Origin: Botryllus schlosseri
Taxonomy: Eukaryota
Assembly (NCBI GenBank): GCA_051294905.1
Contig: CM119372.1
Coordinates: forward strand, 27,158,001 to 27,222,000
Reading direction: 5' to 3'
Length of the DNA stretch: 64,000 nucleotides
Position numbers and translations under genes: made by a program. The notes beneath the pieces were generated by a model. That model had not been told where the DNA came from. It saw nothing but the letters and a program-made list of their open reading frames with translations, and did not search any database. This document shows positions 42,801-64,000 of this stretch, one piece after another (within the stretch, counting starts at the first letter, position 1; each line of letters opens with the position of its first letter).

Positions 42801-45800
42801 TTATGCGATCGCGAAGTATAAGTAATGTAAGTCGAACTTGTTTTCAAAATACCTTCAATTTGGTAACTAAACTCTGAAATGAAACTTTGACAGAACGCCG
42901 AAGGTCAATCCCTATACTTCATAGAAATGTCGTTTCCAGCGCTTGTTATACCTTGCTCTGTATGTTTTTAAAGAATTGATACGGACATCAGGCGAGGCTG
43001 CAGCTGTCCCTTGCTGGAACGGAAAGAAAGTGTTGAAACGATAATTCTCGTTGATACAAAAGTGATAAGAGGAGAATAATTTCGATAGTACAAAACATCA
43101 CTCTCATCGCCAGATTCGAATGTTGAACATTTGAGCTCGATTCGGATTTGAGTACGTCAGTCGTGGGTGGGCAAACTGCGGCTCGCGATCCGCATGCGGT
43201 TCTTTCAGCTTTTGATTGCGGCTCTTTAACGATTGCACAATGTGTACATGCGTTTCGCCATTTTACTAGAGAGGTTTACCCGGATTATTAATCAATTCAT
43301 GCATTCTGTCGCCTTTTACCAGTATGCGTATTTTTTTGTGTGTTGTTTCTCTTCTTATGGTGTGCGCAAGACTTGTAAATTTTAGTGGCGAGAGGCACTA
43401 CAGGGTTAGACCTTTACAATTGAACACTTGAATCATGTTCATATAAACGTTTCACCCGCGACAATGGTGCCTGGTCTCAATCAATGATAAATCATTGTGT
43501 TCAACAATAAGCTTGATAAGAAATCACGCCAGCGCAGGTCACAATCATTTCCGGGCTAGCAATGGTGAAGACGGTCATTCGTATTGTAAAGACTAGCAAT
43601 AAGTGCTGAGTGTGGCCAAGAAAATATCGTCGAGCGATAATTACAAGAAAAGAAAGAATGAACATGAAAATACAACAGTAATTTGAAACGTTGTTACGAA
43701 ACTAGACACCAAAAACTTGGCCCGAGCAATAACATTAGCGCGCTGAAATATTCCTTAAATTATCATCAGCACTTGAAGGAACTGCTCCCCACTGCTTGTT
43801 GTCATATCAGCCTGATTTCAAACTTGCAGTCCAGGTGGAGGCGCACCGTTTCACCATACGATAATAAACTTCATTCGATAGCCTACATTTCATTGTGACG
43901 TGATAAAATCATATTATTGATTTTTTGTGTTGTGGCTCTTTCAAAGTTAAGATTTTCGATATGCGACTAGTGCGTGAAACTGGCCTGCCCACCCCTACTC
44001 TATAGTAAACTATTCCCTCCCCATTATATTATATGAACGGCATGCGGTTGCAGGAATGTCGGTAGTACTGCCAACAGTTTATACCCATTTTTGTTATGTG
44101 GATTTTCGGGGACATCCATGTTTGCATACACCTAATATCGCTATCATGGGAGATTTAAACTCATTCAAGTTCAATTATGCACGAAAATAGGAAACATCCC
44201 GTTATTAAATGACAGTTTCAAGTTTCCGTTAGGCTAAGTTGGGTTTCTGCTATCAATATCTATAAGAAATTTCATTCCGGGTATCACTGAAAATGATGCA
44301 AACTGTCATACCTTCCCCTTTGTTCAGACCGACATCCAGTTCCAATTCTTCTGATCGGTGGTCATCTTGCGAGACGTGGAATTACGGTTATAAAGATTGC
44401 TTGATTGCGTAAGTACGCCTATAATGGAACCATCTGACTACCATTAACACTGGATCAATGATTACATTGGCTGGACAACCGATACAATCCAAGATTATTG
44501 GTCAAATAAAGCAATTTGATACGGGTTAATAACTTCCCGCATCGAAGGTGTGTGGTATGATTTGTAAATTTGTGACGGTCAGCCTCTGTGTACTGCAGAG
44601 CAGTTCTCAACTTTATGTACCTACCTGCAATAGTGTAGCTCGACGCATTAGAAGTGGAGTTAATAAGTCTGCATTCCTATTTATGAACCTCACAATACGT
44701 CACTGCCAAACAGAAATTTTATCATAATATATATATATATATATATATATATTGGTGTTGTTGTTGACTGTGGAATCATGGTACTAATTGGTGTTGCATG
44801 GTAAATGAATAAACCGGTTGAGCTATAAAATAGTGATAATGGCACTATACAATAGTATTTTTGACTCCATTTTCGGAAACCACTTTATATTTTATGGGGC
44901 GCTAAGCGCAATTTATCATTTCTTTGTTTCTTTTCCTGATTTTGTAATGAAAAAAGCGTGTTTGGATAAAGTAATTTAGACCAACTAGGTTTCAAATATT
45001 ACTTCGCTGTGGAATGATTTTCGATAAGTTTGAAAATTGATCTCGAAAAAATGGATAAAAACTATACTTGGATTTCACCACGGCGATTAATGAATAAAAA
45101 ATGTCAGGTGGGTCACCCTTGAAGCCATCTTTTATATGGCTTTCCCATTTATTTGTAGATAAAGTCGCGCCAGGAATATTTAAAATTAATATTACGAATG
45201 ATTGCGTTTGAAAGCAAGTGATTGCTATACCTGGTTTTGACCATGCTATACCTGGTTTTGACCCCACTTGGCTTAGTGAATGATTTTCAATTCAACATTA
45301 AGAACTTTTTCCATTCTGTAATTAGACACTATAAATCGGCCCATACAACATCGGTTAACTGTTTTATAGCCGTTACTGTCGCATGTAATGTCAAACAAAT
45401 CGAATTTAGTGGTTAGGTGAGCACGAAATAGCAACTATTAAAAATGCAATCGTTTTTCGGTTAGGGTTAAATTTTGATGAAATTTATTTTTCTGCATTTA
45501 AGATTAGACATTAGATTATACCTATTCCTAAACTAACATGTAAACCCGAAACCCAGTTGAACTATGTGGTTGATGTGACTAGGAATCACTTGTAAACAAA
45601 TTATTCACATCTTCGCAACAGCTAATTTCATTTACTATTAAGAGTATAGTGAGATGTCCGGGTCCCTCTTTCTGTATGTAACATTTTACGGTCATCATCC
45701 TCCAGATGACACCAGTTTTATTATTAGTTGTGGTTTTCATGTTTTTCTTTACTACAATTATCATTTACAATAGCTCTATAGTTTTTTTTATCGTTCTTCC

Positions 45801-48800
45801 AAATGTACCGAGCTGTACCACGGTCCAAGTTTAGGCTTTTATAAGACACTGCTCACGCGGCTTAGATGGCGAAGTCTAATCATGATCTAGTCTAATCATA
45901 ATCTCTGAATCAAGTTGTGAGTACAATTACAGGAAAAACATAAGATGTAGAATTTTGATCAAAATGTTCAATCACTGTTAGCTATCATCATTATGAGCCT
46001 ATATACGTTTTCCGGTGGGTTCGAAAGCTTCGGTGTTACGAATAGCTGCAATGGATCATGGTATACTTGGATATGTCAGTGCTTTTCTTCCCTCACTGTT
46101 TCGATAATTTGCTATGTTTGTCACAAAAAAGTAATGTTAGCCGTCGGAATGGTATCTCTCCCAACTCTGTCGGTCTATAAAATAGCTTGCTTAACCATTT
46201 ATAATTTCGAATAAAATAAAATACCAACCCTTTATGAGCGTCACACAACCGGACGTTGTAGTTCCTGAAAACAGGTTACATATTATCATTTTGAAAATAG
46301 GACAGTCTATTGCAGCATAGTTCATTCGGATTTCCCGATTTACCTTTTATAGCTGGTTCGTGGTACAGAACTTGAATATAGCTTTCAATACAACATCCAT
46401 TGTAGCAGTATATTTATTAAACTCGAAGACTTTTCGGGTGCCTCTTTTCAAGAGTTATCGGCACACTGATGGGATTTAAACAGATTTAAAAGCAAAACCA
46501 AAAAGGCAAAGTATGACGCAACAATCAAAATCACAGACCATGAAATTCGCATTGTATCAATGGCAACAATAACAAACTACGAAGTATACGGACATACGGT
46601 ACTATAGTAGCAGCACAATTTGTGAATAAACAATTACACGCACGGAACAACACGCACTAATGAGAAAGTTATAGGTTATAGAGGAAATCTTTCTGTCTGC
46701 ATAAAATAGGTTTGCTCAACTGAATAATAGTAGACTCCAACACTTTTAAATGAAACACAGACCTACCACGCGCAATGACAGTGAACTAATAGTAATAATA
46801 ATAACTAATAAATATCTGATCACCGCAGCAACTTGATTAAACATTTTTCCTAATATGTTTGACTATGATATCGATAAGTTATTATCTTACTGTAGTCTTG
46901 CCTTTTAAAATTTGATTGCCGTCGTAATAGTCCGACCGCGGAGTTCAAGCAATTCTCAGGACGTAGCCTATATTATTAAGAACTCAATTTATATTTGTAA
47001 TTGTATGGAATTTCGCGACAATACCGCGGCATGTATTCCTGTTACCTGAATATCGTCGATAACTACTTAAACTTTTACATTAGCACTTCCAAATGTGGGA
47101 CATGGGTGTTTCGCTCAATTGTTCGTTTCACACGGCAAGATAAAACGTGACCAATTTTATGTAAGTTATATCATTTGCAGATACAACTGTACCAAGGTGC
47201 CTTATCGAGACGTTAAGTCGATTCGAGAATGCAGTGCTAAGGTAAATCATTTCGTATAGTTATGCAACAGACCATCATCATCGTAAATGTTACACATAGT
47301 AAGTAGGCCAAAACATAACATCGTTTGTTTAAATGCGGAATCAAGTCCGTGAGTATCTTTCTGTAATTGCCTGAATATGCCCACTAAATGATCTGTTAGC
47401 TACTCGGTGCTCACAGCTCGCAGTGTTTTTACATAGGATACTTGGTAACGCACTGCGATTATGAAGTAGACCCTGCTAACGAGTAAAACTGTTGACGATG
47501 GCAGAATTGTTTATGAGTATGAGTATTTTTGAATTGTGGAGCAAAATGCAAGACTTCAAGAATTGCGATGCGATAAAAAGAATGGCAGGAGTCGAAACGA
47601 CTTAGTGAATTCAACCAATCAGACTTCTGCCGTTATCGACGAGTATAGTAATAAAATGGAAAAATGTGTAAAGAAATTTGAGAAATGAGAAATATGATGA
47701 GAAAGGCCCTACAAAAATACCTAAAAATGGAAGGCGGACGAGGCATCTTTCAGAGATCCATTTCGACTAAGCCGTGGACATCTCACAGCCATTTCTGCCG
47801 GTGTACTTACTACAACCTACTAGAGCAGTGGTTCCCAACCTTTTTTAGACACGCCTCCTTTATGATAGTGAAACATTTCGTGCCCCCCTCATCGTGATAT
47901 CACAAAATCCAACCGGGATACTAGCAACTCCAACAGATTTTTGATGGCATGGAAGGTTATAACTGTTGATGAGAGAATTACAAAATATGAAATTCGGTGT
48001 TTATATAGAGAAACACGCGTGAATTGGAGGTAAATCGCGCAAAGCGCGAATTTTTTTTTCAGTTGATTGTTTCTTCGCGCCCCACTTCCGAGCTTTCACG
48101 CCCCCCACTGGGAACCATTATACTAGAGGATATATGAAATCATTTTATCCATATAACAATTGATTAATCCCAGTGAATACGACTTGCACAAACTTGCATG
48201 TCTAAGGAAACTATAGAACTAGACTGATATATGTATTCGAGATAGCCCAGCGTTAGTAATGACCATGATTTTAATTGTAAGATGTGGCCAATAATGCATT
48301 TGCAATACATTGCAGGATACCAAGTGCAACATTTCAGAATGGTGCGAAGTTGGATGCCCATGCTTCTATTTTCATTGCGACGACGAAAAGGTTATTTCTG
48401 AAGACAGTGTAAGAATTGCATATTAAAATAGGAAAATGGCCTTTTGTAGAGATAAATTACACTTACTATGATGACACAAAACCTTCGGTGACCTGTCATG
48501 TAGAGCGTTAGTTCGTCGACTGTCTAAACCTGAATGGGACTACATTTAAATCGAACAGTAGGCGTTTAATATCGATGCTTCTGATGAACTATGTCAAAAA
48601 TGAAGCTACAAACATAATTCCTGTTCGCGAGATAAGGACGCATTACTTCTGCGAAAATTGGTAATCGTAATCCATGGGATATGTACCATCATAATGTTTG
48701 CTGTAGACTACTTGGTTCGTTTACATCTGTTCTAATTGGTGTTATACCAGAAACTGTCGCAAACCTGATTTGCACCATACGCGCTGGTGAAAATCGGATC

Positions 48801-49941
48801 AATCCTCGATGTTCTTTGAATTTGTCTGTTTAATGGTATTAACGGCTAATCTGACATAACCTGTCATGTTAGAGTTTATATACACATTCATCGTTTGAGG
48901 AAGGTAAATGTGTAGCAGGAGGTGTCATTGCTAAATTTGTTGCCCGTTTAAACGCCACGACGGCCGCACCCCAAAACCCGAAATTGAGGAAGGGAGCTCG
49001 GAGGGGAATTATTTCGTAAATCAAGATAAAAAGGAGTATTTCAGAGATATTTCCTCAACTGACAATGTGTTATTTAAGTGATGAAAGTGATTCTATAAAA
49101 GTGGTTTACTCAATGAGGAGGGGGCGAAACGTTTTTTTAATCTTTCCCATGCACCCATTCCCAGGATGTGGATATGCAAAACGTTGTATGCGAAAAATGT
49201 GATTATTGGTTATTCTCTCATCAAATATTTAGGTATGCGACGGGTACAAGGATTGCTCATCTGGGTCTGATGAATGTCAGCCGGGATGCATTGAAAGTGC
49301 ATTTTCTGACGAGAAGTCGATGATTAAAAGCACAGGAGTCCTAGTTCTGGTGTGGACATTCAGTAAGTCACTTCGAAAAATCGACCGGGCTCGAGGTATT
49401 CGGACTGGGATAGGATTTCAATGAGGCTCGATATGTCGGGTTTACCAGGTTTGAATCGCTCGGGACAAAAATATTTTACAGATTCCAAATCTTACGTAGA
49501 TGATGTTCATGCTATACTCTGCTCTACTCTACTCTGCTTACTTTGCAGGTGTTACTGCCATTTTTGGATGTACATCAGTAGTTGGATCAAATTTACATGG
49601 CCTGTTGGAGAGCCCTAATGGAATTGTCACTTCATCGCATACCACCATCAACAGACTACTCATTATGAGTTTATCCGTTGCTGATTTGCTTGTTGGGGTA
49701 GGATACGTGTATACCTACTATATGCATTTACTGTACTAGTGTATCTGGTAAATACTCAGGTATACACGATTTCCATATGCATCAAGGCCGCGGTGTTCGA
49801 AGGCATATACTGCGACGTCGATGTCGAATGGAGAACAAGCACCGCCTGTTCAATGCTAGGCGCGCTATTAATCGTCGGATCAGAGCAATCCGTGTTTACA
49901 ATGGTTCTGATAACGATACATCGACTGCATGCTGTCATGAG
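12810..49941 (+). CDS. LDLa-repeat-containing rhodopsin-class GPCR (GRL101/RXFP/LGR-related 7TM, no LRRs seen); 18 exons, 3'-incomplete (ends after TM3)
   Basis: Exons read by hand: 12810-12867, 17555-17648, 19067-19209, 27519-27609, 29449-29591, 30033-30126, 30786-30934, 36039-36074, 36846-37004, 37064-37103, 41664-41707, 42574-42673, 44328-44408, 47181-47241, 48316-48408, 49233-49362, 49549-49697, 49760-49941. All junctions are AG/GT except one GC donor at 37005. Phases chain without a stop (1847 nt). Signal peptide MCWIYFLGLLMIITLPIMHA; LDLa motifs such as VCDGFLDCHDLSDECLC and VCDGYKDCSSGSDECQPGC; TM2 LSVADLLVGVY; TM3 WRTSTACSMLGALLIVGSEQSVFTMVLITIHRL. Confidence 0.88.
14383..15748 (-). 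mobile_element. Internally deleted hAT transposon containing the transposase remnant
   Basis: One end is GGACGGTACGGCAACCCTG (15748) with subterminal AATAAGGAC repeats. The degenerate opposite end near 14383 has the same AATAAGGAC motif. Confidence 0.6.
14683..15204 (-). pseudogene. Decayed hAT-superfamily transposase, N-terminal part
   Basis: Hand translation: MSKRKKVFRDGYERDF...AHCNIWNCDI...KHK...AAAAEG(frameshift)WAFHTVKHQQS...IFPYSNIANKFASARTKTTSIVTGVLAPYA...PFSVLVDASN. It has a degraded BED-like finger, ARTK and FSxxxDASN motifs, three stops and one frameshift. Confidence 0.8.
15748..15840. repeat. Short imperfect hairpin
   Basis: GAATCGAATCACCCAG...CTGGGTGATTCGATTC. Confidence 0.8.
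16432..17213. mobile_element. hAT MITE with 8-bp TSD TATATAGC
   Basis: TIR TAGGGTTCTGGTTTAAATC / GATTTAAACCAGAACCCTA. Confidence 0.92.
17555..19209 (+). CDS. GPCR LDLa cassette 1 (exons 17555-17648 and 19067-19209)
   Basis: GQNCSTEEFKCRDGLNCIPVVNFCDTVMDCS|DGSDEPAQIEKIDNSLYEVCRGRSEHRSGFCELPSDLEPDRQRLCRE, with canonical splice sites. Confidence 0.9.
17721..18401. mobile_element. MITE with a duplicated left end
   Basis: GGCGGAGATAATAAAGTT ... AACTTTATTATCTCCGCCCT; the left terminus is repeated at about 17721 and 17800. Confidence 0.8.
18536..18799. mobile_element. Small TIR element with CACTCTTAG termini, flanked by TA
   Basis: TA|CACTCTTAGCGAA ... TTCACTAAGAGTG|TA. Confidence 0.75.
20237..21923. 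mobile_element. hAT non-autonomous element with CTACTT repeats and 8-bp TSD CACACGGG
   Basis: TIR CAGAGGTGGTCA / TGACCACCTCTG. A partial second copy lies at about 26052-26320. Confidence 0.92.
20880..20950 (-). mobile_element. tRNA-like (SINE head) segment inside the hAT element
   Basis: The reverse strand reads TAGCGTAGTGG (A box) and GGTTCGATTCCC (B box), but the acceptor stem does not pair well. Confidence 0.6.
22599..25648. mobile_element. hAT element with GATTAC repeats and 8-bp TSD ATCTGCCC
   Basis: TIR CAGACATG / CATGTCTG with an exact TSD. Confidence 0.88.
24081..25063. mobile_element. hAT MITE with 8-bp TSD GTACGTAC
   Basis: TAGGGATGGTGTGAAC / GTTCACACAATCCCTG with an exact TSD. 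Confidence 0.92.
26616..27038. mobile_element. hAT-type MITE
   Basis: CAGGGGCACGCGAC...CGGCC start and GTTGCCCGCCCCTG end. Confidence 0.6.
27105..27304. mobile_element. MITE end with GGAGTC repeats
   Basis: (GGAGTC)n arrays ending CCGACTTCAAAGCCCTG. Confidence 0.65.
27519..29591 (+). CDS. GPCR LDLa cassette 2 (exons 27519-27609 and 29449-29591)
   Basis: MECSKEEFACRDGSMCIPVLHFCDTMKNCI|DESDEPRTYPMTENTLVNICRGRSEDQSGYCILPSDLEHDRLRLCRN. Paralogous to cassette 1, with the same 143-bp second exon. Confidence 0.9.
30033..30934 (+). CDS. GPCR LDLa cassette 3 (exons 30033-30126 and 30786-30934)
   Basis: STSCSPGEYACRDGSSCLHVSYFCDGFPSCK|DRSDEPRPLLDADSAGRLCMGRELSGTKPHPYCRLRDEEICDGLSICSN, with donors GTGAGC and GTAAGA. 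Confidence 0.9.
32474..32887. mobile_element. hAT-type MITE
   Basis: AGTGGTTTCCAAC ... GTTGAGAACCACTG termini. Confidence 0.7.
33465..35788. mobile_element. Fold-back element with diverged TIRs of about 600 bp and 8-bp TSD CGCGCATA
   Basis: About 33465-34075 is the reverse complement of about 35155-35788; termini GGGCTGTTCAAAAAA / TTTTTTGAACAGCCC. Confidence 0.88.
36039..37103 (+). CDS. GPCR exons 36039-36074, 36846-37004 and 37064-37103 (LDLa module plus linker)
   Basis: DVDECFCGDNSE|GHIDNGCFRCLSNPTQIIGVSSVCDGFLDCHDLSDECLCQAAERPKICERMKW|GMLNATENRSSHL. Confidence 0.8.
37602..38273. mobile_element. hAT MITE with 8-bp TSD GCCTAACC, inserted in a CCTAA-repeat element (about 37470-38435)
   Basis: TIR CAGGGGTCGCCA / TGGTGACCCCTG with an exact TSD. 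Confidence 0.9.
38450..40160. mobile_element. hAT element with GAGTCAAGTC repeats and 8-bp TSD CCCATAGC
   Basis: TIR CAGTGTTGGGAT / ATCCCAACACTG. Confidence 0.93.
39072..39783. mobile_element. Nested hAT MITE with 8-bp TSD GATTAATC
   Basis: CAGGGTCGGCCAACC / GGTTGACCAGCCCTG with an exact TSD. Confidence 0.92.
40310..40985. mobile_element. hAT MITE with 8-bp TSD CTTTAGTT; shorter relative at about 47826-48118
   Basis: TIR CAGTGGTTCTCAA / TTGAGAACCACTG. Confidence 0.92.
43158..43996. mobile_element. hAT-type MITE
   Basis: GGGTGGGCAAACTGCGGCTC ... CCTGCCCACCCCTA. Confidence 0.65.
44727..44752. repeat. (AT)n microsatellite
   Basis: About 13 AT units. Confidence 0.9.
48316..49941 (+). CDS. GPCR juxtamembrane LDLa module and TM1-TM3 exons (48316-48408, 49233-49362, 49549-49697, 49760-49941)
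   Basis: FHCDDEKVISEDS|VCDGYKDCSSGSDEC...GVLVLVWTF|SVTAIFGC...INRLLIMSLSVADLLVG|VYTISICIK...WRTSTACSMLG...SEQSVFTMVLITIHRLHAVM. The pattern is typical of the RXFP/GRL101 7TM domain. Confidence 0.92.
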
Positions 49942-50538
49942 GTTTGAATAGACACAGTGGTGTCGCCACATAAAGGCGGCAATGTGGTGTGAAATACTAT
50001 TGCGTTCTCAGCCGTTGGAAATTGGGCAATCCAATTAGTTAGTCATCTGCTAATTGGATCCATACAAAATATAGTAAGATATGCTATGACTAGAATACCA
50101 CGTGAATTCTACTGCGCAGCCACTATTTTCACTATTGATGACAGTTACCTCCGATAGTATAATCGGTAAGTTTCCCAATCCGACTCTGACCCTGTTTTAT
50201 TGAAGGACATTTGTAATCCCACCCGACTTCTAGTCGCGATCGCTGGAATTAGTATGATTTTCGTTCACAAAACTGAATATGCACAAAGTAAATTGAAGGA
50301 ATTTTATCGTTGTTTTCGTTGGAAGGAAATGAAACGTCAATGCTGCAAGAATATGGTTAGCAATGCATGGATCCTCAGCCCCATTCTGGGTCAGTCCAAA
50401 ATCTGCTAAGTCCCACCCAGGTGCACCATGGCGTCGGATTTATGCTGCACACAACTAGGTTGTTTAAGGAATTATTTTCATACGGGGTTGAAGTCATGAT
50501 GCGATATTGAACATGCAATAATGACTATTAGCCTATAT

Positions 50539-50910
50539 CAGAGGCGGCCAACCAGTGGCCCGCGAGGTAATTCACGAAATTAGTCATATCAAAAAAATAC
50601 CCGGATAATTCATTGTGAAGTTGCAAGGCCAACCAAAGTTTGGTAGCCTGACCGCAAAATTTGGGATGTTGATGACTAAGATATCTGTTCCGATACGTTT
50701 TCGTAGCAAGGGGCCAGCCACATTTTTCGTAGATCTTTCTATATGACCGCAGAGTAGAATATTTCTTGGAATATTTGTTTGACCTGATATTTTTCTTAGC
50801 ACATGTCGCGATTTATCGTCACTCGAAGTCTTGATTTTAGTATTACCTAGTAATACCTACAATTCACAGAATTGAGTCGAGCTATATTCACAATTATGAG
50901 ACAACACGTC
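50539..50910 (+). mobile_element. Left part of a MITE of the 39072-39783 family, interrupted at 50910
   Basis: Colinear with 39072-39495 (GTGGCCCGCGAGGTAATT...GTAGATCTT...GTCACTCGA...ATTGAGTC...GAGACAA), after which homology ends abruptly. Confidence 0.85.
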
Positions 50911-51963
50911 AGTAGTAGGATAAAGCAATTTTGTTGCCGGCCAATCCCAGAAGGCCACGTCGCCTTAATTGCCACGCCTACATTGCCACATCATCCGCCC
51001 ATTGCCACATCATCTGCTACGTCATCAGCCGCGGGCATTGCCACATCCAATGTATATTTGTATTAGTGAAATGCGTCTTGATAATATTAGTCAGATTTTC
51101 TATTATGTGTATTTAGGACTATGTATTTAAATTCCTATTCAGATTATACATAAATGCGAAAACTATGATGTATATGCAAGGCTATATTCTCCGGATAATA
51201 TTATTAATATCAAAATTCTACACATCATCACTAATTACTTAATATAAAATGCGATTTTGAGCGCTGCGACTTGATAATATGAATCTCTACGCTTCTGATG
51301 CATGATTTTTTGCGATAAGGACCTAGGTAACATTCAGAGTCTGCAACGATTGTTTGGATATACATTATAGCAATACCCCACTAAACTATAGGCGGTTATA
51401 TTACTCTATTGGTCAGAGATAACTCATCCGTCCATATTTTTAAACTTGATTTTATGTATACAAGTTACGGTCTCTGCAGCCTCCACATTTTACGACTTAT
51501 TTTTATTAGACGCAGGCAAGCGGTTCTCCAGTTCGTAGCTACGGAAACAAATCACTCGCATGTGCGCGTTCCGAATAGTCTTGTAGAATTTTCTAAAGTC
51601 GTAACAGCTTAGCAGCATATACGCGAATCCCCAGGCGAAAATAATCGAACGAACTATAGCCGCAGGCGTGCGATTCGCAGGGCTTTAATTATATAAACAC
51701 TTTCGATACCTGTACGCGAACCCCAGCGTTATAACGATTGCTATAATTAAACGAACACCTTCGCGGCAGGTACGCGATCCCCGACGTTATAATGATAGGG
51801 ACAAATTAGCCGCATGAAAGCGAGTCTAATGAATATAACGACAGACAACAAGTTAGTTGAAAAGTAAAACTAATCGTGACCGACGCAAGACGGTGTGAAA
51901 CAGCGCTTTCGCTCGATTCTTTCTTGACATATAATATACTGAGCATATAAAAAGCTGGCAAAA

Positions 51964-52410
51964 CCTATACTTGAGTACTCCGAAATGTACAAGTACTTTA
52001 CCTTTACACGACGTTTTTGTAAAATGAATACTAATTTCAATGAAAAATAAAAAAATATGTACTCAAGTAGGTTTTTGTCTACACGCACCAACTACTCAAG
52101 TGTTTATGACACAGGAATGATTCATGAATTATAGCGCAAGCAGGCCAAATCTATACTTGAGTACTCCAAAATGTAAAAGTACTTCCACCTATACTTGAGT
52201 AGTCCGAAATGTACAAGTACTTTACCTTTACACGACGTTTTGTAAAATGAATACTAATTTCAATGAAAAATAAAAAATTATGTACTCAAGTAGGTTTTTG
52301 TCTACACGCACCAACTACTCAAGTGTTTATGACACAGGAATGATTCATTAAGTATAGCGCAAGCAGGCCAAATCTATACTTGAGTACTCCAAAATGTACA
52401 AGTACTTCGC
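51964..52410 (+). repeat. Tandem duplication of about 224 bp built on a CTATACTTGAGTACTCC motif
   Basis: Units start at about 51964 and 52188. Further local duplications at about 52460/52641 and 52885/53085. Confidence 0.85.
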
Positions 52411-54299
52411 TATGTACTCTCTCCACGTAAAAAGTGACTAGGTTTTAGACTACTTTATCGATTTTCGATGTTGCGCAAATACCGCAAACTTTGCTTGCTT
52501 TCAGAGCTGGCAACTAAATGCAAGACAGACTTAAGTTTGGATGCGGCATATTTAGGTTTTTAAAAATTATTCATACCCATGTTTCGAAATATTGTTAACT
52601 AACTTATGTTTTCGATATAAGATAAGCGTGAAGTGTACAAATTTCGATGTTGTGCAAATACCACAAACTTTGCTTGCTTTCAGAGCCGACAACTAAATGC
52701 AAGACAGACTTCACGCAAAAGTTGATATTCTGAAAATTTTGGCTAGTTAATAGTTTAAAAACTTATACTTCAGCACTACGAAATGTACAAGTACTTTACC
52801 TATACACGACGTTTTTGTAAAATGAATACTAATTTTAAGAAAAAATAAAAAAAAGAGCGAAAAACTACCTTTTATCACGCTAATCCCCACCGTGAAACTT
52901 GGTACGCAGTTGTAGGACAATATGAAAATACACCATACCAAATTTCGTCAGACATTTCATGATGTAACACCTTTAAAACCAACGCAGTTCTATACCGACT
53001 TTTGGCCTAATCTGTTTTCCGTAACGCAGCACGTACGTATACATAGACAACTTTAAAACGGAATTACCATGTTAATAATCGACTCCCCCACCTTGAAACT
53101 CGGTACGCAGTTGTAAGACATTATGACAATGTACCATATTAAATTTTGTTACGCATTTCATGATTAAACAACTTTAAAACTAACGCAGTTCTATACCGAC
53201 ATTTGCGTGAATCTGTTTTGCGGGAGCGTAGCACATACCTATACTTCGGATTTTGTATAGTATATACTAATTTTACATTGCGGGGTATTCAGTAAACTTT
53301 AATCCAGTGATCCTCCATCTATTTTCAATCACGCTCCTCTTATTAGTCTAGGCTTCCAACCCCACATCCAGTACGTATTTACCTACTAAGTACCTATTTC
53401 CGACTAAGTAAAACGTCAGTATTCCAGGTATTTTCTGCTTAATTCTGAAACTATAATGGATTTGAAGCAGTACAATATCATAAACACTTGAGAATATTTG
53501 CTGCATGTAGGTAAAAAACGTACTTGAGTACTCGGAAGAAGTCGATACTTACTTGTTTAGCCGCTCGGACATCATCACTTATTGTACTTTACTAGAAATT
53601 TACTGCTGATAAATGAGTGTAATACCACGAAGTGAGACTTCGAAACTATATCGTCAGTTCTCCGGGACCAAATATCGTGTTAAGTGTTAAGTTGTTGTAT
53701 TATGTAGCTATAGTAATTGGTACACGTAAGCTCAGGATCGAACCAACTTGTGTTAACTTGCGTTATTATGTACCTAGTAATTGATGCGAGTAATCCCGCA
53801 ACTGATGCTGTTCAATGCCTTTACTGCGTTCTTACCAAGCACCTAGACAGCCCCAAGCAATATTTTTAGATTCAAATATAGCGTATCGAGTACTTTTTCT
53901 CAACTGTAATAAAAACTTTTAGACTCCGGATTTTGTGTAGTAGGCTATATACTAATTTACAATACCGCATTTGTAATTCGCGCAAGTACAGGAATATCAT
54001 AGTTCTTGTAAGAAAGTTGTCTGCGCACAATATATGTTAATCATAAGTCCTACAAATTCATGATTTCGTCCTAGTTTAAGTTTTAGAAAATATTATACCG
54101 ACATCGCGACATCTTTCAAAAACAAAACCATGATCAAGGATTGAAAGATAATTTTTGCTATTTTTCATTGACATAAGTCATTCTGGAACGCGAAAACGCA
54201 TTGTACGATATAGATGAAACTTAAGCAAATCCTAGGATCCTCATTTCCAAAGTAGCTTAGATCTCGAAATAAGCTTTGACTCGCTATTCTCCTCAAGCC

Positions 54300-54945
54300 A
54301 TGGAATCATCACGAGTATCAGCACCTTCGATCACTGAAGAAAAGGATGAAATTATATCCGAAACATATTCCTTGACCAGGAATTTTATCATGTACGAACT
54401 CGACGGGTCATGCGTTAAGGTAAATACGAAAGCAGAGAGAACCTTACGTCAAGTTGGAGATGAAATGCTCGAGCGACATCGAACAGTCCTAAACGCAGTT
54501 TCCAAACGTCTCCGCTATAGTGATGTTGAAGTCAATGAAAAATATAAAGAATATTTACCCGATGAGCGGCTGTTCCTGATGCTAGCTGATGAAATTTTCA
54601 AAGATACCAAAGAAAATTGGGGGAGGATTGTCTGCCTTTTTGTGCTCGGTAGCATTCTTGCTCGCAAAAACGAGGATGAACATCACGGGGAGCATATAGA
54701 AGCTATCATACAGACAATTGGGAATTACATTGCTAGCAGAAGACTAAAGTGGATAGTGCGAAATGGAGGATGGGTAGGTGATTTACATGCTTCGCTTAGG
54801 ATTTATAAATTATCTTCTATTTTTGTTACAGGATGGCTTTGTAGGATTTTTTGATAATGCCGCTTTCGACTACAATAAAGTTTGGAAGGGACTCGTGTTT
54901 GTTGGAATCGGACTGACATCTATAGCAATGGCATTATCAAGATAA
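54300..54945 (+). CDS. Bcl-2 family apoptosis regulator, MCL1/A1-like, 195 aa, 2 exons (54300-54773, 54832-54945)
   Basis: BH3-like LRQVGDEM, BH1 NWGRIVCLFVLG, BH2 WIVRNGGW|DGFVGFF split by a 58-bp GT-AG intron at the conserved GGW^D position, and a C-terminal membrane anchor VWKGLVFVGIGLTSIAMALSR. AATAAA at 54984. Confidence 0.93.
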
Positions 54946-54983
54946 TGGATGTTCGCATGTTTTATCTCATGTAATATTTTAAG

Positions 54984-54989
54984 AATAAA
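54984..54989 (+). terminator. Probable polyadenylation signal of the Bcl-2-like gene
   Basis: AATAAA about 40 nt after the stop codon, mirrored at 62180-62185. Confidence 0.55.
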
Positions 54990-55948
54990 ATTCTTCATCG
55001 TTAATCGCATCCATTTTACTGTAGGATGTATACAGTTTCAGTATGAATGATGGGTCCTATGGTGCTTGACGAAAGAAGTTGGTCATCTATTCTATATTCC
55101 GAAATAATCAAGTTTGTGATTTTTTAGCAGCACCTAGCCTCATATAAACTTTAATAGAATCACTTATAACTCATCAGTTTACTCAAGTAAATCTAATTTG
55201 ATACTCGAGCACTGAACCTTAATTTTCCAGCAGTATGATAGACACCCTCCGATGGTACTCAACATCGTGCAATTCTGCTCGAATACAAGTACAAGTAGAG
55301 ATTTCAAAGTAAGTAAGTAACTGGTTATGTTTGTAGACTATAACTCCACTTCTATCGTTCAGAAAGGAAAGGACGTAGTTTATTTTTGTCCTTGATGTTT
55401 GAGATGTTGAGCAGAGAAGTACATGTACTTCTTTAAAGTACTCAAGTAGGCTAAAATGCCAAGCTACCTTGTAACTAAGGCTACTATTTGTCATAATAAC
55501 TACTATGAGCGCACAATTAGCTTGTTCAAAATCTCCAAATTCCAGGGATTCACTGATTGAATTGATATGTATTGAATTAAAATAATGCTGCCTACGAAAT
55601 TTGCTAGATGTGAACGCATTTTTATCAAAATGTTCAAATTTCACTGACAACCTCTTGAAATTGTTGCAGTGTCTAAAACAGAGATCTCAAACATGCGGCT
55701 CGCGAACCGTCAATTTAATAAACCGTCGAACAATCAGGGTTGGAGACAAGATTTTTCCGTTCTATGTCATGACAATACCAACAAACACCGTGTAAAGTTT
55801 CAAGGTTGTCATTCGATGATTAAGGAATTAAGAAAACTACTTCTACTAAACTTCTGGACTTTTACTAAACTTATACACTGCATCTGATCAAGTATAGATA
55901 GAAAAGCAAAGCTAATATAAAATTCCGCGAAGTACCGATTCTGTAACT

Positions 55949-57318
55949 ACTGTAAGTAGGCAAACCTTAGCTGAGTATACTCCGAAAAAACAGGAGTAAT
56001 TCGTTACTCACCAAATAAATGGATATCATTCAATATGAGTGGCGTTAGGATATCCGTCAAATACTTTCCGTTATTCTATAGAAGTTGCGTTTCTGACTAC
56101 TTAAAAGTTGCTAGAGCTCATGCTATTTTATCGTCGTATCGATGTTCGTTTTGAAAAGTAGCATGCTCAATGGTTCATGTTCACATTATTCAGTTAAATT
56201 AGGTTTTGCGCAAAGAAAAAGGACTGTAAGTAGGCAAACCTTAGCTGAGTATACTCCGAAAAAACAGGAGTAATTCGTTACTCACCAAATAAATGGATAT
56301 CATTCAATATGAGTGGCGTTAGGATATCCGTCAAATACTTTCCGTTATTCTATAGAAGTTGCGTTTCTGACTACTTAAAAGTTGCTAGAGCTCATGCTAT
56401 TTTATCGTCGTATCGATGTTCGTTTTGAAAAGTAGCATGCTCAATGGTTCATGTTCACATTATTCAGTTAAATTAGGTTTTGCGCAAAGAAAAAGGACTG
56501 TAAGTAGGCAAACCTTAGCTGAGTATACTCCGAAAAAACAGGAGTAATTCGTTACTCACCAAATAAATGGATATCATTCAATATGAGTGGCGTTAGGATA
56601 TCCGTCAAATACTTTCCGTTATTCTATAGAAGTTGCGTTTCTGACTACTTAAAAGTTGCTAGAGCTCATGCTATTTTATCGTCGTATCGATGTTCGTTTT
56701 GAAAAGTAGCATGCTCAATGGTTCATGTTCACATTATTCAGTTAAATTAGGTTTTGCGCAAAGAAAAAGGACTGTAAGTAGGCAAACCTTAGCTGAGTAT
56801 ACTCCGAAAAAACAGGAGTAATTCGTTACTCACCAAATAAATGGATATCATTCAATATGAGTGGCGTTAGGATATCCGTCAAATACTTTCCGTTATTCTA
56901 TAGAAGTTGCGTTTCTGACTACTTAAAAGTTGCTAGAGCTCATGTTATTTTATCGTCGTATCGATGTTCGTTTTGAAAAGTAGCATGCTCAATGGTTCAT
57001 GTTCACATTGTTCAGTTAAATTAGGTTTTGCGCAAAGAAAAAGGACTGTAAGTAGGCAAACCTTAGCTGAGTATACTCCGAAAAAAACAGGAGTAATTCG
57101 TTACTCACCAAATAAATGGATATCATTCAATATGAGTGGCGTTAGGATATCCGTCAAATACTTTCCGTTATTCTATAGAAGTTGCGTTTCTGACTACTTA
57201 AAAGTTGCTAGAGCTCATGCTATTTTATCGTCGTATCGATGTTCGTTTTGAAAAGTAGCATGCTCAATGGTTCATGTTCACATTGTTCAGTTAAATTAGG
57301 TTTTGCGCAAAGAAAAAG
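55949..57318 (+). repeat. Tandem array, 5 x 274 bp (left arm)
   Basis: Units starting ACTGTAAGTAGGCAAACCTTAGC at 55949, 56223, 56497, 56771 and 57045; near-identical. Confidence 0.97.
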
Positions 57319-59850
57319 AAAATTCACGCAAAAGTCGCTATTGCTCCGTGATGATTTTGATGTTGTTCCATACCGATTTGGGAGGTAGTACACCTAATTT
57401 CGTAAAGTACACAGAAAACTACTTCTACTAAATTCCTACACTTCTAAACTTCTACACTGAATCTTGTAAAGTATATAGAAAAGGAAAGCCAACGAATAAT
57501 TCATGAAGTTCCGATAGGCTATATTTGAGGTAATGATTCCCGTGCGAATGAAAAGTAAGTAGAGAAGCTTAGCATATCAACGATATCGTTGCCAGTCATT
57601 GCGTCGATTCGCTGCTTGAAATCCTCAAGATCGATTGATGTTTCGAGGTTTCGCGGTTTCGCTTTGCTGTCATCCGTACGAGCAGAATGTCTGGATTAGG
57701 AACAACTACGCCAGGACCATTAATGCTTTCGATACAGTGCAATATGAATAGCGCTACGTTGATCAATTCAAATTCAACAATGGCTCCCGCGCACGATTAT
57801 GTAGCCGGATTTTCGTTGAATATTGACGACACCCACAAACCTAAAGATCTCTTTCCCCTTCACATCTATGATAGAGTTATCACTCCAATGACTACGAATA
57901 ACTTGAGATTCCGTCGGATTAATATCCGAATCAAATAATACCAGAGTATCTTTTCCGACTTTTAAAACCCGCACTGTCGCGTTCGGCCTATGTCGCAACA
58001 CCACAATATGCGGCCATACAAAACGATGAATAGTAGCTTTTTGTAGTACCATATCTGCGAGATATTTTCAGTTGGGTGTAATTTCACGCTGCTCACCAAT
58101 TTACAGCTCACAGTGCAACTGAATTGGCGTTCATACTAATTCTACATAATTTTTGCATGTCAGGCAATTACATCAGCAGTAAAACGCCGGCGGCTACTCA
58201 TTTGAAGCTTGTTAGTATCTGAGATAAATGGCGCTCAAGCGTAGCATGGAATCGCTAATACACCATACCAAATTTCGTCAGACATGTCATGATGTAACAC
58301 CTTTAAAAACCAACGCAGTTCTATACAGACTTTTGATGCAATAGCGATTACACAGTAAGTAACTAACTGAATATGTTTGTAGACTATATCTCCACTTCTA
58401 CCATTCAGAGATGTTGAGCACATAAGTATATGTACTTCTTCAAAGTACTCAAGTAGCTTTTCGTAGGATATAGATGACACTGACAACACTCACCAAGACC
58501 ACTGGTCCACTGAAAAAAGTACATTGTAGCAGTAAAGTCCTACTAAAGTACAAGAAGTAATGATTTCCCAGTTAGTTAAAAAGTAAGTATTGCAGGTATA
58601 GTTTGATCGAAAAAGCGAAAAACTCTGAAATAGAAGTAGATGCAGTGTAAATAGGTAACACTTCATTGAGTATAGCGCAAGCAGGCCAAACCTATACTGG
58701 AGTACTCCAAAATGTACAAGTACTTCGCTAATGTAGTAAGCAGGCCGATATGAAGATATTCGTTGAGCTGAATGAACATAAAAATACTCCCGTGCCCCGA
58801 AATTTATGTATAATCTGAATTGTATTTTCTGGAGGGAAAGTATTATCTAGCGTATAATGAATGTTATTTATTTTTTGGAATATTAGTCCTAAATACACAT
58901 AATAGAATATCTAAGGGAAGTATCGAAGTTTCATAATAAACATGAAAATACCTGGTGTCGTTGAGTTGAATAAACATAAAAAAATAAACATAAAAAAATT
59001 TTTGCCTGACATGCAAAAATTATGTAGAATTAGTATGAACGCCAATTCAGTTGCACTGTGAGCTGTAAATTGGTGAGCAGCGTGAAATTACACCCAACTG
59101 AAAATATCTCGCAGATATGGTACTACAAAAAGCTACTATTCATCGTTTTGTATGGCCGCATATTGTGGTGTTGCGACATAGGCCGAACGCGACAGTGCGG
59201 GTTTTAAAAGTCGGAAAAGATACTCTGGTATTATTTGATTCGGATATTAATCCGACGGAATCTCAAGTTATTCGTAGTCATTGGAGTGATAACTCTATCA
59301 TAGATGTGAAGGGGAAAGAGATCTTTAGGTTTGTGGGTGTCGTCAATATTCAACGAAAATCCGGCTACATAATCGTGCGCGGGAGCCATTGTTGAATTTG
59401 AATTGATCAACGTAGCGCTATTCATATTGCACTGTATCGAAAGCATTAATGGTCCTGGCGTAGTTGTTCCTAATCCAGACATTCTGCTCGTACGGATGAC
59501 AGCAAAGCGAAACCGCGAAACCTCGAAACATCAATCGATCTTGAGGATTTCAAGCAGCGAATCGACGCAATGACTGGCAACGATATCGTTGATATGCTAA
59601 GCTTCTCTACTTACTTTTCATTCGCACGGGAATCATTACCTCAAATATAGCCTATCGGAACTTCATGAATTATTCGTTGGCTTTCCTTTTCTATATACTT
59701 TACAAGATTCAGTGTAGAAGTTTAGAAGTGTAGGAATTTAGTAGAAGTAGTTTTCTGTGTACTTTACGAAATTAGGTGTACTACCTCCCAAATCGGTATG
59801 GAACAACATCAAAATCATCACGGAGCAATAGCGACTTTTGCGTGAATTTT

Positions 59851-61220
59851 CTTTTTCTTTGCGCAAAACCTAATTTAACTGAACAATGTGAACATGAACC
59901 ATTGAGCATGCTACTTTTCAAAACGAACATCGATACGACGATAAAATAGCATGAGCTCTAGCAACTTTTAAGTAGTCAGAAACGCAACTTCTATAGAATA
60001 ACGGAAAGTATTTGACGGATATCCTAACGCCACTCATATTGAATGATATCCATTTATTTGGTGAGTAACGAATTACTCCTGTTTTTTTCGGAGTATACTC
60101 AGCTAAGGTTTGCCTACTTACAGTCCTTTTTCTTTGCGCAAAACCTAATTTAACTGAACAATGTGAACATGAACCATTGAGCATGCTACTTTTCAAAACG
60201 AACATCGATACGACGATAAAATAACATGAGCTCTAGCAACTTTTAAGTAGTCAGAAACGCAACTTCTATAGAATAACGGAAAGTATTTGACGGATATCCT
60301 AACGCCACTCATATTGAATGATATCCATTTATTTGGTGAGTAACGAATTACTCCTGTTTTTTCGGAGTATACTCAGCTAAGGTTTGCCTACTTACAGTCC
60401 TTTTTCTTTGCGCAAAACCTAATTTAACTGAATAATGTGAACATGAACCATTGAGCATGCTACTTTTCAAAACGAACATCGATACGACGATAAAATAGCA
60501 TGAGCTCTAGCAACTTTTAAGTAGTCAGAAACGCAACTTCTATAGAATAACGGAAAGTATTTGACGGATATCCTAACGCCACTCATATTGAATGATATCC
60601 ATTTATTTGGTGAGTAACGAATTACTCCTGTTTTTTCGGAGTATACTCAGCTAAGGTTTGCCTACTTACAGTCCTTTTTCTTTGCGCAAAACCTAATTTA
60701 ACTGAATAATGTGAACATGAACCATTGAGCATGCTACTTTTCAAAACGAACATCGATACGACGATAAAATAGCATGAGCTCTAGCAACTTTTAAGTAGTC
60801 AGAAACGCAACTTCTATAGAATAACGGAAAGTATTTGACGGATATCCTAACGCCACTCATATTGAATGATATCCATTTATTTGGTGAGTAACGAATTACT
60901 CCTGTTTTTTCGGAGTATACTCAGCTAAGGTTTGCCTACTTACAGTCCTTTTTCTTTGCGCAAAACCTAATTTAACTGAATAATGTGAACATGAACCATT
61001 GAGCATGCTACTTTTCAAAACGAACATCGATACGACGATAAAATAGCATGAGCTCTAGCAACTTTTAAGTAGTCAGAAACGCAACTTCTACAGAATAACG
61101 GAAAGTATTTGACGGATATCCTAACGCCACTCATATTGAATGATATCCATTTATTTGGTGAGTAACGAATTACTCCTGTTTTTTCGGAGTATACTCAGCT
61201 AAGGTTTGCCTACTTACAGT
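59851..61220 (-). repeat. Tandem array, 5 x 274 bp (right arm, inverted)
   Basis: Reverse complement of 55949-57318, including unit-specific variants. Confidence 0.97.
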
Positions 61221-62223
61221 AGTTACAGAATCGGTACTTCGCGGAATTTTATATTAGCTTTGCTTTTCTATCTATACTTGATCAGATGCAGTGTATAAGT
61301 TTAGTAAAAGTCCAGAAGTTTAGTAGAAGTAGTTTTCTTAATTCCTTAATCATCGAATGACAACCTTGAAACTTTACACGGTGTTTGTTGGTATTGTCAT
61401 GACATAGAACGGAAAAATCTTGTCTCCAACCCTGATTGTTCGACGGTTTATTAAATTGACGGTTCGCGAGCCGCATGTTTGAGATCTCTGTTTTAGACAC
61501 TGCAACAATTTCAAGAGGTTGTCAGTGAAATTTGAACATTTTGATAAAAATGCGTTCACATCTAGCAAATTTCGTAGGCAGCATTATTTTAATTCAATAC
61601 ATATCAATTCAATCAGTGAATCCCTGGAATTTGGAGATTTTGAACAAGCTAATTGTGCGCTCATAGTAGTTATTATGACAAATAGTAGCCTTAGTTACAA
61701 GGTAGCTTGGCATTTTAGCCTACTTGAGTACTTTAAAGAAGTACATGTACTTCTCTGCTCAACATCTCAAACATCAAGGACAAAAATAAACTACGTCCTT
61801 TCCTTTCTGAACGATAGAAGTGGAGTTATAGTCTACAAACATAACCAGTTACTTACTTACTTTGAAATCTCTACTTGTACTTGTATTCGAGCAGAATTGC
61901 ACGATGTTGAGTACCATCGGAGGGTGTCTATCATACTGCTGGAAAATTAAGGTTCAGTGCTCGAGTATCAAATTAGATTTACTTGAGTAAACTGATGAGT
62001 TATAAGTGATTCTATTAAAGTTTATATGAGGCTAGGTGCTGCTAAAAAATCACAAACTTGATTATTTCGGAATATAGAATAGATGACCAACTTCTTTCGT
62101 CAAGCACCATAGGACCCATCATTCATACTGAAACTGTATACATCCTACAGTAAAATGGATGCGATTAACGATGAAGAATTTTATTCTTAAAATATTACAT
62201 GAGATAAAACATGCGAACATCCA

Positions 62224-62869
62224 TTATCTTGATAATGCCATTGCTATAGATGTCAGTCCGATTCCAACAAACACGAGTCCCTTCCAAACTTTATTGTAGT
62301 CGAAAGCGGCATTATCAAAAAATCCTACAAAGCCATCCTGTAACAAAAATAGAAGATAATTTATAAATCCTAAGCGAAGCATGTAAATCACCTACCCATC
62401 CTCCATTTCGCACTATCCACTTTAGTCTTCTGCTAGCAATGTAATTCCCAATTGTCTGTATGATAGCTTCTATATGCTCCCCGTGATGTTCATCCTCGTT
62501 TTTGCGAGCAAGAATGCTACCGAGCACAAAAAGGCAGACAATCCTCCCCCAATTTTCTTTGGTATCTTTGAAAATTTCATCAGCTAGCATCAGGAACAGC
62601 CGCTCATCGGGTAAATATTCTTTATATTTTTCATTGACTTCAACATCACTATAGCGGAGACGTTTGGAAACTGCGTTTAGGACTGTTCGATGTCGCTCGA
62701 GCATTTCATCTCCAACTTGACGTAAGGTTCTCTCTGCTTTCGTATTTACCTTAACGCATGACCCGTCGAGTTCGTACATGATAAAATTCCTGGTCAAGGA
62801 ATATGTTTCGGATATAATTTCATCCTTTTCTTCAGTGATCGAAGGTGCTGATACTCGTGATGATTCCAT
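62224..62869 (-). CDS. Second, inverted copy of the MCL1-like Bcl-2 family gene (exons 62869-62396, 62337-62224)
   Basis: Mirror image of 54300-54945 (coordinate sum 117169). The ORF track gives an identical translation for both copies. Confidence 0.93.
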
Positions 62870-64000
62870 GGCTTGAGGAGAATAGCGAGTCAAAGCTTAT
62901 TTCGAGATCTAAGCTACTTTGGAAATGAGGATCCTAGGATTTGCTTAAGTTTCATCTATATCGTACAATGCGTTTTCGCGTTCCAGAATGACTTATGTCA
63001 ATGAAAAATAGCAAAAATTATCTTTCAATCCTTGATCATGGTTTTGTTTTTGAAAGATGTCGCGATGTCGGTATAATATTTTCTAAAACTTAAACTAGGA
63101 CGAAATCATGAATTTGTAGGACTTATGATTAACATATATTGTGCGCAGACAACTTTCTTACAAGAACTATGATATTCCTGTACTTGCGCGAATTACAAAT
63201 GCGGTATTGTAAATTAGTATATAGCCTACTACACAAAATCCGGAGTCTGAAAGTTTTTATTACAGTTGAGAAAAAGTACTCGATACGCTATATTTGAATC
63301 TAAAAATATTGCTTGGGGCTGTCTAGGTGCTTGGTAAGAACGCAGTAAAGGCATTGAACAGCATCAGTTGCGGGATTACTCGCATCAATTACTAGGTACA
63401 TAATAACGCAAGTTAACACAAGTTGGTTCGATCCTGAGCTTACGTGTACCAATTACTATAGCTACATAATACAACAACTTAACACTTGTAAAACACGATA
63501 TTTGGTCCCGGAGAACTGACGATATAGTTTCGAAGTCTCACTTCGTGGTATTACACTCATTTATCAGCAGTAAATTTCTAGTAAAGTACAATAAGTGATG
63601 ATGTCCGAGCGGCTAAACAAGTAAGTATCGACTTCTTCCGAGTACTCAAGTACGTTTTTTACCTACATGCAGCAAATATTCTCAAGTGTTTATGATATTG
63701 TACTGCTTCAAATCCATTATAGTTTCAGAATTAAGCAGAAAATACCTGGAATACTGACGTTTTACTTAGTCGGAAATAGGTACTTAGTAGGTAAATACGT
63801 ACTGGATGTGGGGTTGGAAGCCTAGACTAATAAGAGGAGCGTGATTGAAAATAGATGGAGGATCACTGGATTAAAGTTTACTGAATACCCCGCAATGTAA
63901 AATTAGTATATACTATACAAAATCCGAAGTATAGGTATGTGCTACGCTCCCGCAAAACAGATTCACGCAAATGTCGGTATAGAACTGCGTTAGTTTTAAA

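What the first reader, a model, noticed from the sequence alone, without database searches (positions are those of the whole stretch)
53173..64000. Near-perfect gene-bearing palindrome of more than 10 kb with an 834-bp spacer
Seen: the arms mirror each other, with only about three differences noticed by eye (one 4-bp indel, two substitutions). Inference: either very recent formation (fold-back replication or template switching) or ongoing arm-to-arm gene conversion. The differences and the distinct spacer argue against a simple chimeric-read artefact but do not exclude one.
Basis: partly seen in the sequence, partly recalled or inferred. Interest (0 to 1): 0.8.

Follow-up and report, generated by a model that had tools for sequence, protein, structure and literature searches.

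The report
Mirror-image Polinton satellite carrying Bcl-2
The assembled DNA holds a 99.9% mirror-image duplication of at least 5 kb per side with a Bcl-2-family cell-death gene in each half, and it is likely most of a roughly 15-kb jumping element that arose when a virus-like Polinton transposon copied back on itself, although independent sequencing data confirmed only one of its two inner junctions.

Summary
Observation confirmed: arms 53173-58167 and 59002-64000, 3 differences in 4,995 bp, 834-bp spacer. The right arm runs off the window. The unit most likely starts at 50911, at a Polinton/Maverick-type (AGT)2 motif where a host repeat stops; symmetry predicts about 15.35 kb. Each arm has an intact, intron-bearing Bcl-2-family gene (nearest named: Styela clava, 48%), five 274-bp tandem units and a conserved orphan 92-aa ORF. 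No Polinton core gene is visible. Best reading (0.7): a helper-dependent, copy-back derivative of a Polinton. Independent runs bridge the left junction. None covers the right junction, and arm:spacer depth fits 1.1 in one run and 1.7 in another. A one-off fold-back (0.14) or an artefact (0.11) therefore stays open. Three alleles differ from the laid majority yet sit in both arms, so arm symmetry is younger than this copy's divergence from its family. This scan's notes describe such palindromes elsewhere in this genome, and the Polinton idea came from them. Eight literature searches found no whole-element palindromic Polinton.

The parts
50905..50910 (+). candidate left copy of a 6-bp target-site duplication (partner would lie outside the window)
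   Evidence: hexamer just before the terminal motif; untestable here
50911..50916 (+). (AGT)2 end motif, likely left terminus of the element
   Evidence: A host dispersed repeat aligns to its paralogue at about 39.1-39.5 kb up to about 50911 and then loses similarity. Element-type repeats begin by 51093. About 0.04 such motifs expected by chance in that interval.
50911..53172 (.). inferred outer part of the left arm: non-coding, built of short repeated modules (223 bp x2 at 51963-52408; 159 bp x2 at 52885-53244); its mirror would lie beyond 64000
   Evidence: mirror not visible
53173..58167 (+). visible left arm
54300..54945 (+). Bcl-2-family gene, 195 aa: exon 1 54300-54773, 58-bp GT-AG intron 54774-54831, exon 2 54832-54945 with a hydrophobic tail
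   Evidence: PF00452 77.8 bits, E 1e-21; gene model; tail 19 of 37 identical to the Styela clava protein
55949..57318 (+). tandem array, 5 x 274 bp, 99% alike
57774..58052 (-). 92-aa orphan ORF, predicted all-beta, pointing away from the spacer
   Evidence: 3 homologues at 66-77% identity; 13 of 24 listed read differences synonymous against 23% expected; model pLDDT 76.9
58168..59001 (.). 834-bp single-copy spacer; 401 of 834 bases match short modules in 50911-58167; ends in an A-rich 14-bp tandem duplication (58969-58999)
   Evidence: left junction bridged in runs X3 and X6, right junction covered in none
59002..64000 (-). visible right arm, cut by the window end; predicted to end near 66262
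59117..59395 (+). mirror copy of the 92-aa ORF
59851..61220 (-). mirror copy of the 5 x 274-bp array
62224..62869 (-). mirror copy of the Bcl-2-family gene, identical

Best explanation
The palindrome is likely the inner 10.8 kb of a roughly 15.35-kb non-autonomous element with Polinton/Maverick-type ends that is predicted to be a mirror image of itself from end to end and would be copied and inserted by enzymes of intact Polintons. Shown: the mirror arms, the spacer, the two cargo genes, the absence of any core gene in the visible part, and an (AGT)2 motif where host sequence stops. Inferred: a strand-displacing, protein-primed polymerase copied a parent element from its left end for about 8.1 kb, switched to the displaced strand 834 nt back, and copied back to the same end. 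The product has two identical termini, so it would remain a substrate for the parent's polymerase and integrase, and its length would fall in the range of intact elements. Arm identity would come from that copy-back, and perhaps from re-copying or repair when a displaced strand folds on itself. The Bcl-2 gene likely came from a host as genomic DNA, intron included, and may help a carrier cell survive.
For: (1) Terminal motif at 50911 at a host-repeat boundary. (AGT)2 is the commonest vertebrate Maverick end motif, and intact elements span 12.7-24.6 kb (PMC8097293, section 7). (2) Of 71 reading frames of 40 aa or more in 50911-59001, one passes a Pfam cut-off (Bcl-2), and the longest is 193 aa. 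(3) The sequence is repetitive and widespread: 20 of 24 listed runs hold part of it, 10 hold half or more of 525 words, and the holders come from 12 studies. Spacer modules lie 20-114 times deeper than subfamily-specific parts, with several allele sets (not a copy number). (4) Left junction bridged without a break in two studies: X3 57987-58316 with 0 differences, X6 57810-58383 with 2. (5) Alleles at 57573, 57842 and 57985 differ from the near-identical laid pieces and sit in both arms: 3 in 677 bp, against 3 in 4,995 bp between arms. (6) In X6 the depths fit 2:1 better than 1:1 (squared error 1.4 vs 14.1; three pieces). (7) Adintoviruses carry Bcl2 homologues (PMC8502044, passage); a Polinton polymerase displaces strands (PMC5499653, passage); phi29 polymerase makes inverted template-switch products in vitro (PMC1855051, passages).
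Against: The right junction had zero depth in 3 of 3 DNA runs, and no strand-changing joint was among the 15 of 16 joints shown. In X3, the deep run, pure-arm, mixed and pure-spacer pieces have depths of 1396, 1390 and 1393. The fitted arm:spacer ratio is 1.13, and 1:1 fits far better than 2:1, so most molecules of this subfamily in X3 do not look palindromic at this junction. The right terminus and target-site duplication lie outside the window. No whole genome was held, so no helper element and no second full copy were seen. AGTAGT occurs 12 other times in the first 50.9 kb. Expression was not tested: the RNA run gave 0 reads and may not contain the organism.
Confidence: 0.7

Rival explanations
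1. Real but one-off: an ordinary, non-palindromic Polinton-type element, or its left end, underwent a single fold-back inverted duplication at this locus, and the palindrome does not spread as such.
For: X3 depth of about 1:1 suggests that most molecules with this arm and spacer are linear. Alleles private to this copy lie in both arms. A 14-bp duplication and a 9-bp hairpin stem (read by eye) sit at the right junction, as at a one-time template switch.
Against: X6 fits 2:1. The mirror-predicted length of 15.35 kb lies in the intact-element range. Unchecked scan notes report hundreds of such palindromes, one of 15.4 kb with Bcl-2; these are leads only.
Confidence: 0.14
2. Assembly artefact: a fold-back read, or an amplification chimera, made from a single linear element.
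For: Right junction unseen in 3 of 3 runs; X3 ratio 1.13. Amplification chimeras are mostly inversions with a gap between the joined parts (85%, PMC1855051), so a spacer does not exclude one. Private alleles in both arms are expected under this reading too.
Against: The arms differ by two transitions and a 4-bp non-homopolymer indel, which look like mutations rather than read errors (judgement). The junction edge is short and A-rich, and the tool drops human-like contigs without notice, so the hole is not proof of absence. X6 fits 2:1.
Confidence: 0.11
3. A host Bcl-2 locus held in a conversion-maintained palindrome (Y-chromosome type), or a Foldback-like element moved by a cut-and-paste transposase.
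For: The gene is intact, keeps its intron and resembles an ascidian protein. Modular internal repeats recall Foldback elements (recalled).
Against: Polinton-type end motif at a sharp boundary. The element's modules hardly match the host flank: 10 short hits in 50.9 kb. Many allele sets per run point to many copies.
Confidence: 0.05

Closest known systems
Polintons/Mavericks (adintoviruses) of animals (PMC8097293, section 7 and passages; PMC8502044, passages)
   Same: (AGT)2 left end; predicted length within 12.7-24.6 kb; Bcl2 as an accessory gene
   Different: Inverted repeats of at least 5.0 kb (likely 7.3 kb) against 46-1,447 bp; no polymerase, integrase, capsid, ATPase or protease gene in the visible part; cargo gene has an intron
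Butterfly polintons with about 2-kb gene-bearing TIRs (10.1101/2025.02.07.637071, passages)
   Same: Genes duplicated because they lie inside the inverted repeats
   Different: Those repeats hold core genes (hexon, adenain) and are about 2 kb; here the repeat is nearly the whole element and holds only cargo
Copy-back and snap-back defective viral genomes (PMC13506859, passages)
   Same: One genome end copied back on itself, giving a helper-dependent palindrome
   Different: Described there mainly for RNA viruses and as non-coding; this one is DNA, integrated in an animal chromosome, and carries intact genes
Cellular multi-motif Bcl-2 proteins; nearest named is Styela clava bcl-2-like protein 2, XP_039252627; nearest solved is Mcl-1
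   Same: BH1 NWGR motif, BH2 motif split by an intron, hydrophobic tail; 48% identity over exon 1
   Different: Lies in a repeated element, two copies per unit; activity untested

Membership tests
Polinton/Maverick (autonomous) | 5' (AGT)2 or (AG)3 end motif | tested here: met
   AGTAGT at 50911, at the host-repeat boundary; a weak motif on its own
Polinton/Maverick (autonomous) | 3' (ACT)2 end motif and perfect 6-bp target-site duplication | not testable with these tools
   predicted right end near 66262 lies outside the window; no genome held
Polinton/Maverick (autonomous) | protein-primed polymerase and retroviral-type integrase genes | tested here: not met
   longest frame in 50911-59001 is 193 aa; 71 frames scanned, only Bcl-2 passes a Pfam cut-off; 59002-64000 is the mirror; about 2.3 kb unseen
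Polinton/Maverick (autonomous) | capsid, ATPase and protease genes | tested here: not met
   same scan
Polinton/Maverick (autonomous) | short terminal inverted repeats (46-1,447 bp) around a unique core | tested here: not met
   arms at least 4,995 bp, unique part 834 bp
Polinton/Maverick (autonomous) | length 12.7-24.6 kb | tested here: inconclusive
   15,352 bp predicted from symmetry only
Non-autonomous mobile element | multiple copies at different sites, or an empty site | tested here: inconclusive
   many allele sets and high relative depth point to many copies; no insertion site or empty site was tested
Bcl-2 family (PF00452) | Pfam score above the curated cut-off | tested here: met
   77.8 bits against 31.4
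Bcl-2 family (PF00452) | BH1 NWGR, BH2 motif, C-terminal membrane anchor | tested here: met
   best 19-residue hydropathy 1.78
Bcl-2 family (PF00452) | anti-apoptotic activity | not testable with these tools
   needs an assay
Fold-back or amplification chimera (artefact) | junction absent from independent unamplified data; arm depth equal to spacer depth | tested here: inconclusive
   right junction uncovered in 3 of 3 runs, but a filter may explain this; ratio 1.13 (X3) and 1.7 (X6)
Alpha-crystallin/CS-type fold (92-aa ORF) | clear structural match | tested here: inconclusive
   best Z 4.7, rmsd 3.0, 58 aligned; 0 of 48,161 chains at Z 5 or more

The most novel reading that the evidence does not exclude
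An animal genome harbours integrating copy-back defective genomes of a Polinton virus: 15-kb whole-element palindromes that have dropped every viral gene, keep a host-derived Bcl-2 gene and an orphan gene under purifying selection in both arms, renew their own symmetry as they replicate, and spread on the helper's polymerase and integrase.
Probability: 0.55. Interest if true: 0.8.

Novelty: new variant of a known kind. Interest (0 to 1): 0.62.

Why it matters
How Polintons replicate has been modelled but little tested in animals. A whole-element palindrome is the product expected if their polymerase displaces strands and switches template, so these elements would be a natural record of that mechanism and would point to the minimal cis-sequences needed. 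They would extend defective-interfering genomes to an integrating DNA virus lineage. They would also multiply an apoptosis regulator in the host genome. Survey pipelines may miss them: one coral survey allowed repeats of at most 2.5 kb and stated a 15-kb minimum loop (PMC11131425, passage).

Tried and rejected
No whole genome was held, so the right end, copy number and helper elements were not examined. IMG/VR scans with the Bcl-2 exon and with the 92-aa alignment found no relative; neither did the two JGI metagenome scans. The word-index search with the Bcl-2 exon found none among 27 candidates; the exhaustive search found 243. No Rfam family and no tRNA. No RNA holder was listed, and RNA run X22 laid 0 reads, which is no test. 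Idea that the spacer's right end is a truncated ordinary right TIR: rejected, since only short modules match the reversed terminal region. Terminus and spacer fold no better than shuffles (z 1.07 and 0.72). The 92-aa ORF has no Pfam hit, no Atlas hit, no viral structure match at E 0.001 and only weak beta-sandwich matches. The BALF1 hit is below its cut-off and is not taken as a sign of herpesviral origin. Scan look-ups by place (near, relatives) and by sequence returned nothing. Kapitonov and Jurka 2006 was not held and is known only second-hand.
Full report
Observation. Self-comparison shows one large inverted pair, 53173-58167 against 59002-64000, at 99.88%, with an 834-bp spacer. Global alignment gives exactly the three differences reported: a 4-bp indel and two substitutions. 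The right arm is cut by the window end, so 53173 is only the mirror of base 64000. Each arm holds five 274-bp units. Units 4 and 5 carry the same variants in both arms, and one substitution is confined to unit 1 of the right arm. The mirror copy is therefore younger than the array's own variation.

Genes. Each arm has an intact two-exon Bcl-2-family gene: exon 1 at 54300-54773, a 58-bp GT-AG intron, and exon 2 to 54945, 195 aa in all. It scores 77.8 bits on PF00452 against a cut-off of 31.4, and Mcl-1 is the best solved relative (E 5e-10). Among 243 relatives, the nearest named one is Styela clava bcl-2-like protein 2 at 48%, whose tail matches exon 2 at 19 of 37 residues. This supports the splice and suggests an ascidian-like host (inference). 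Of the 150 listed relatives, 129 have the BH2 motif and 86 of these continue with valine, as expected from read-through of an intron at the same place (inference). A second ORF, 92 aa at 58052-57774 on the minus strand, has three homologues at 66-77%. Of 24 listed read differences in it, 13 are synonymous against 23% expected (p about 0.001). The table showed only the 40 best-supported of 65 differences, and each change was classed alone. Its predicted fold is all-beta with no clear match. A 93% identical Bcl-2 fragment and one homologue of the 92-aa ORF are each listed on a 4,016-nt contig, possibly the same one.

Boundary. After six calls I consulted this scan's notes. They describe palindromic elements with Polinton ends elsewhere in this genome. 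That changed my reading; the notes are unchecked, and I tested what I could. A host dispersed repeat left of the palindrome aligns to a paralogue near 39.1-39.5 kb up to about 50911 and then loses similarity. Modules shared with the spacer begin by 51093. AGTAGT stands at 50911. It occurs 12 other times in the first 50.9 kb, so about 0.04 are expected in that interval. (AGT)2//(ACT)2 is the commonest vertebrate Maverick end motif; intact elements span 12.7-24.6 kb with repeats of 46-1,447 bp (PMC8097293, section 7). Symmetry puts the right end near 66262, a length of 15,352 bp. Of 71 frames of 40 aa or more in 50911-59001, one passes a Pfam cut-off (Bcl-2), and none is longer than 193 aa. Of the spacer's 834 bases, 401 match short modules in the arm, against 0 in six and 96 in one of seven host chunks of equal size.

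Real or artefact. Of 24 listed runs, 20 hold part of the arm and spacer and 10 hold half or more of the words; the holders come from 12 studies. I laid four of them on 57319-59041. For the palindrome: the left junction is bridged by single contigs in X3 (330 nt, 0 differences) and X6 (574 nt, 2 differences), which belong to two studies. In X6, arm, mixed and spacer pieces have depths of 12.9, 10.0 and 7.6, a fitted ratio of 1.7. Against it: the last bin, 59001-59041, has zero depth in all three DNA runs, and no strand-changing joint is among the 15 of 16 shown. In X3 a pure-arm, a mixed and a pure-spacer piece have depths of 1396, 1390 and 1393, and the five-piece fit gives 1.13. The five and three pieces are those near-identical to the window among the rows displayed; X1 was left out of the fit because its contigs are very short; 6,345 pieces were not shown. 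The tool warns that contig depth is no copy number and that human-like contigs are dropped silently, and the junction edge is short and A-rich. I recall that contig builders prune short low-depth links beside high-depth repeats; I did not check this. The test is therefore inconclusive for this junction. It does suggest that non-palindromic molecules with the same arm and spacer are the majority in X3, which could be the parent form.

Arm homogeneity. At 57573, 57842 and 57985 the window differs from the near-identical pieces of X3 and X6, and both arms carry the window's allele. That is 3 shared differences in 677 bp against 3 arm-to-arm differences in 4,995 bp, about sevenfold more per base. 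Independent ageing of two arms after insertion would give the opposite pattern. So the arms were made equal after this copy diverged from its relatives: by a fresh copy-back, by re-copying or conversion, or by an artefact. These data do not separate the three.

Mechanism. A Polinton polymerase has been shown to displace strands (PMC5499653, passage). Phi29 polymerase in vitro makes inversions when a 3' end re-primes on a nearby displaced strand (PMC1855051, passages). I infer the same event in vivo: synthesis from the left terminus for about 8.1 kb, a switch 834 nt back, and copying back to the terminus. The 14-bp duplication and the 9-bp hairpin stem at the right junction (read, not tested against chance) fit a stall and switch. 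The product keeps two good ends and a normal length, so a helper could copy, insert and perhaps package it. The same chemistry makes amplification artefacts, which is why that rival keeps 0.11. Bcl2 homologues occur in adintoviruses (PMC8502044, one passage; its supplementary figures, not seen, may bear on this).

Comparison and novelty. The element fails three defining tests for an autonomous Polinton, meets one, and two could not be settled. I do not file it as one; it works like a copy-back defective genome of one (PMC13506859, passages). Eight literature searches (listings and starts of abstracts) found no whole-element palindromic Polinton. The nearest reports are 2-kb gene-bearing repeats in butterflies (passages) and 52-nt terminal palindromes in protist virophages (10.64898/2026.07.28.741278, passages). 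The anole survey noted an apparent absence of non-autonomous Polintons (PMC3014272, passages), and a review of giant transposons has no occurrence of 'palindrom' (PMC6431247, passages). Subscription journals and Repbase were not searchable.

Verdict. The palindrome is in the assembly as described. It is most likely a helper-dependent, copy-back Polinton derivative with two cargo genes (0.7): a new variant of a known kind, interest 0.62. The score is held down by the unseen right end and the unresolved junction.

Noticed in passing
window 49233-50170 (+), with possible upstream exons near 44310-44410, 47110-47210 and 48310-48390: Relic of an LGR-like receptor gene just left of the element: weak LDLa hit (E 0.024), transmembrane part like LGR4 and the LH receptor (E 2e-4), with a frame break near 49720 and stop codons.
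   Followed up: partly
window 50911-59001: The hexamer AGTACT occurs at 1.73 per kb in the element against 0.20 per kb in the host flank; it may be a binding site of the helper machinery.
   Followed up: partly
window 20243-20314: A short host-flank stretch matches several element modules at 75-86%, perhaps a relic of a related element.
   Followed up: no
window 33466-34076 and 35154-35786: An older inverted repeat of about 630 bp at 82% identity, probably a decayed inverted-repeat transposon.
   Followed up: no
window 55831-55939 and 57413-57515: A 109-bp direct repeat at 78% flanks the 274-bp array on both sides.
   Followed up: no
window 57810-58052, run X6 record 21: A diverged version of the 92-aa ORF (27 differences in 243 nt) with a different upstream region, at the same depth as the window-like version: a second subfamily.
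   Followed up: no
window 58800-58925: Laid contigs show joints that go back 80-81 bases, so related elements carry an 80-bp tandem unit here; parts of it match the reversed terminal region near 51093-51155.
   Followed up: partly
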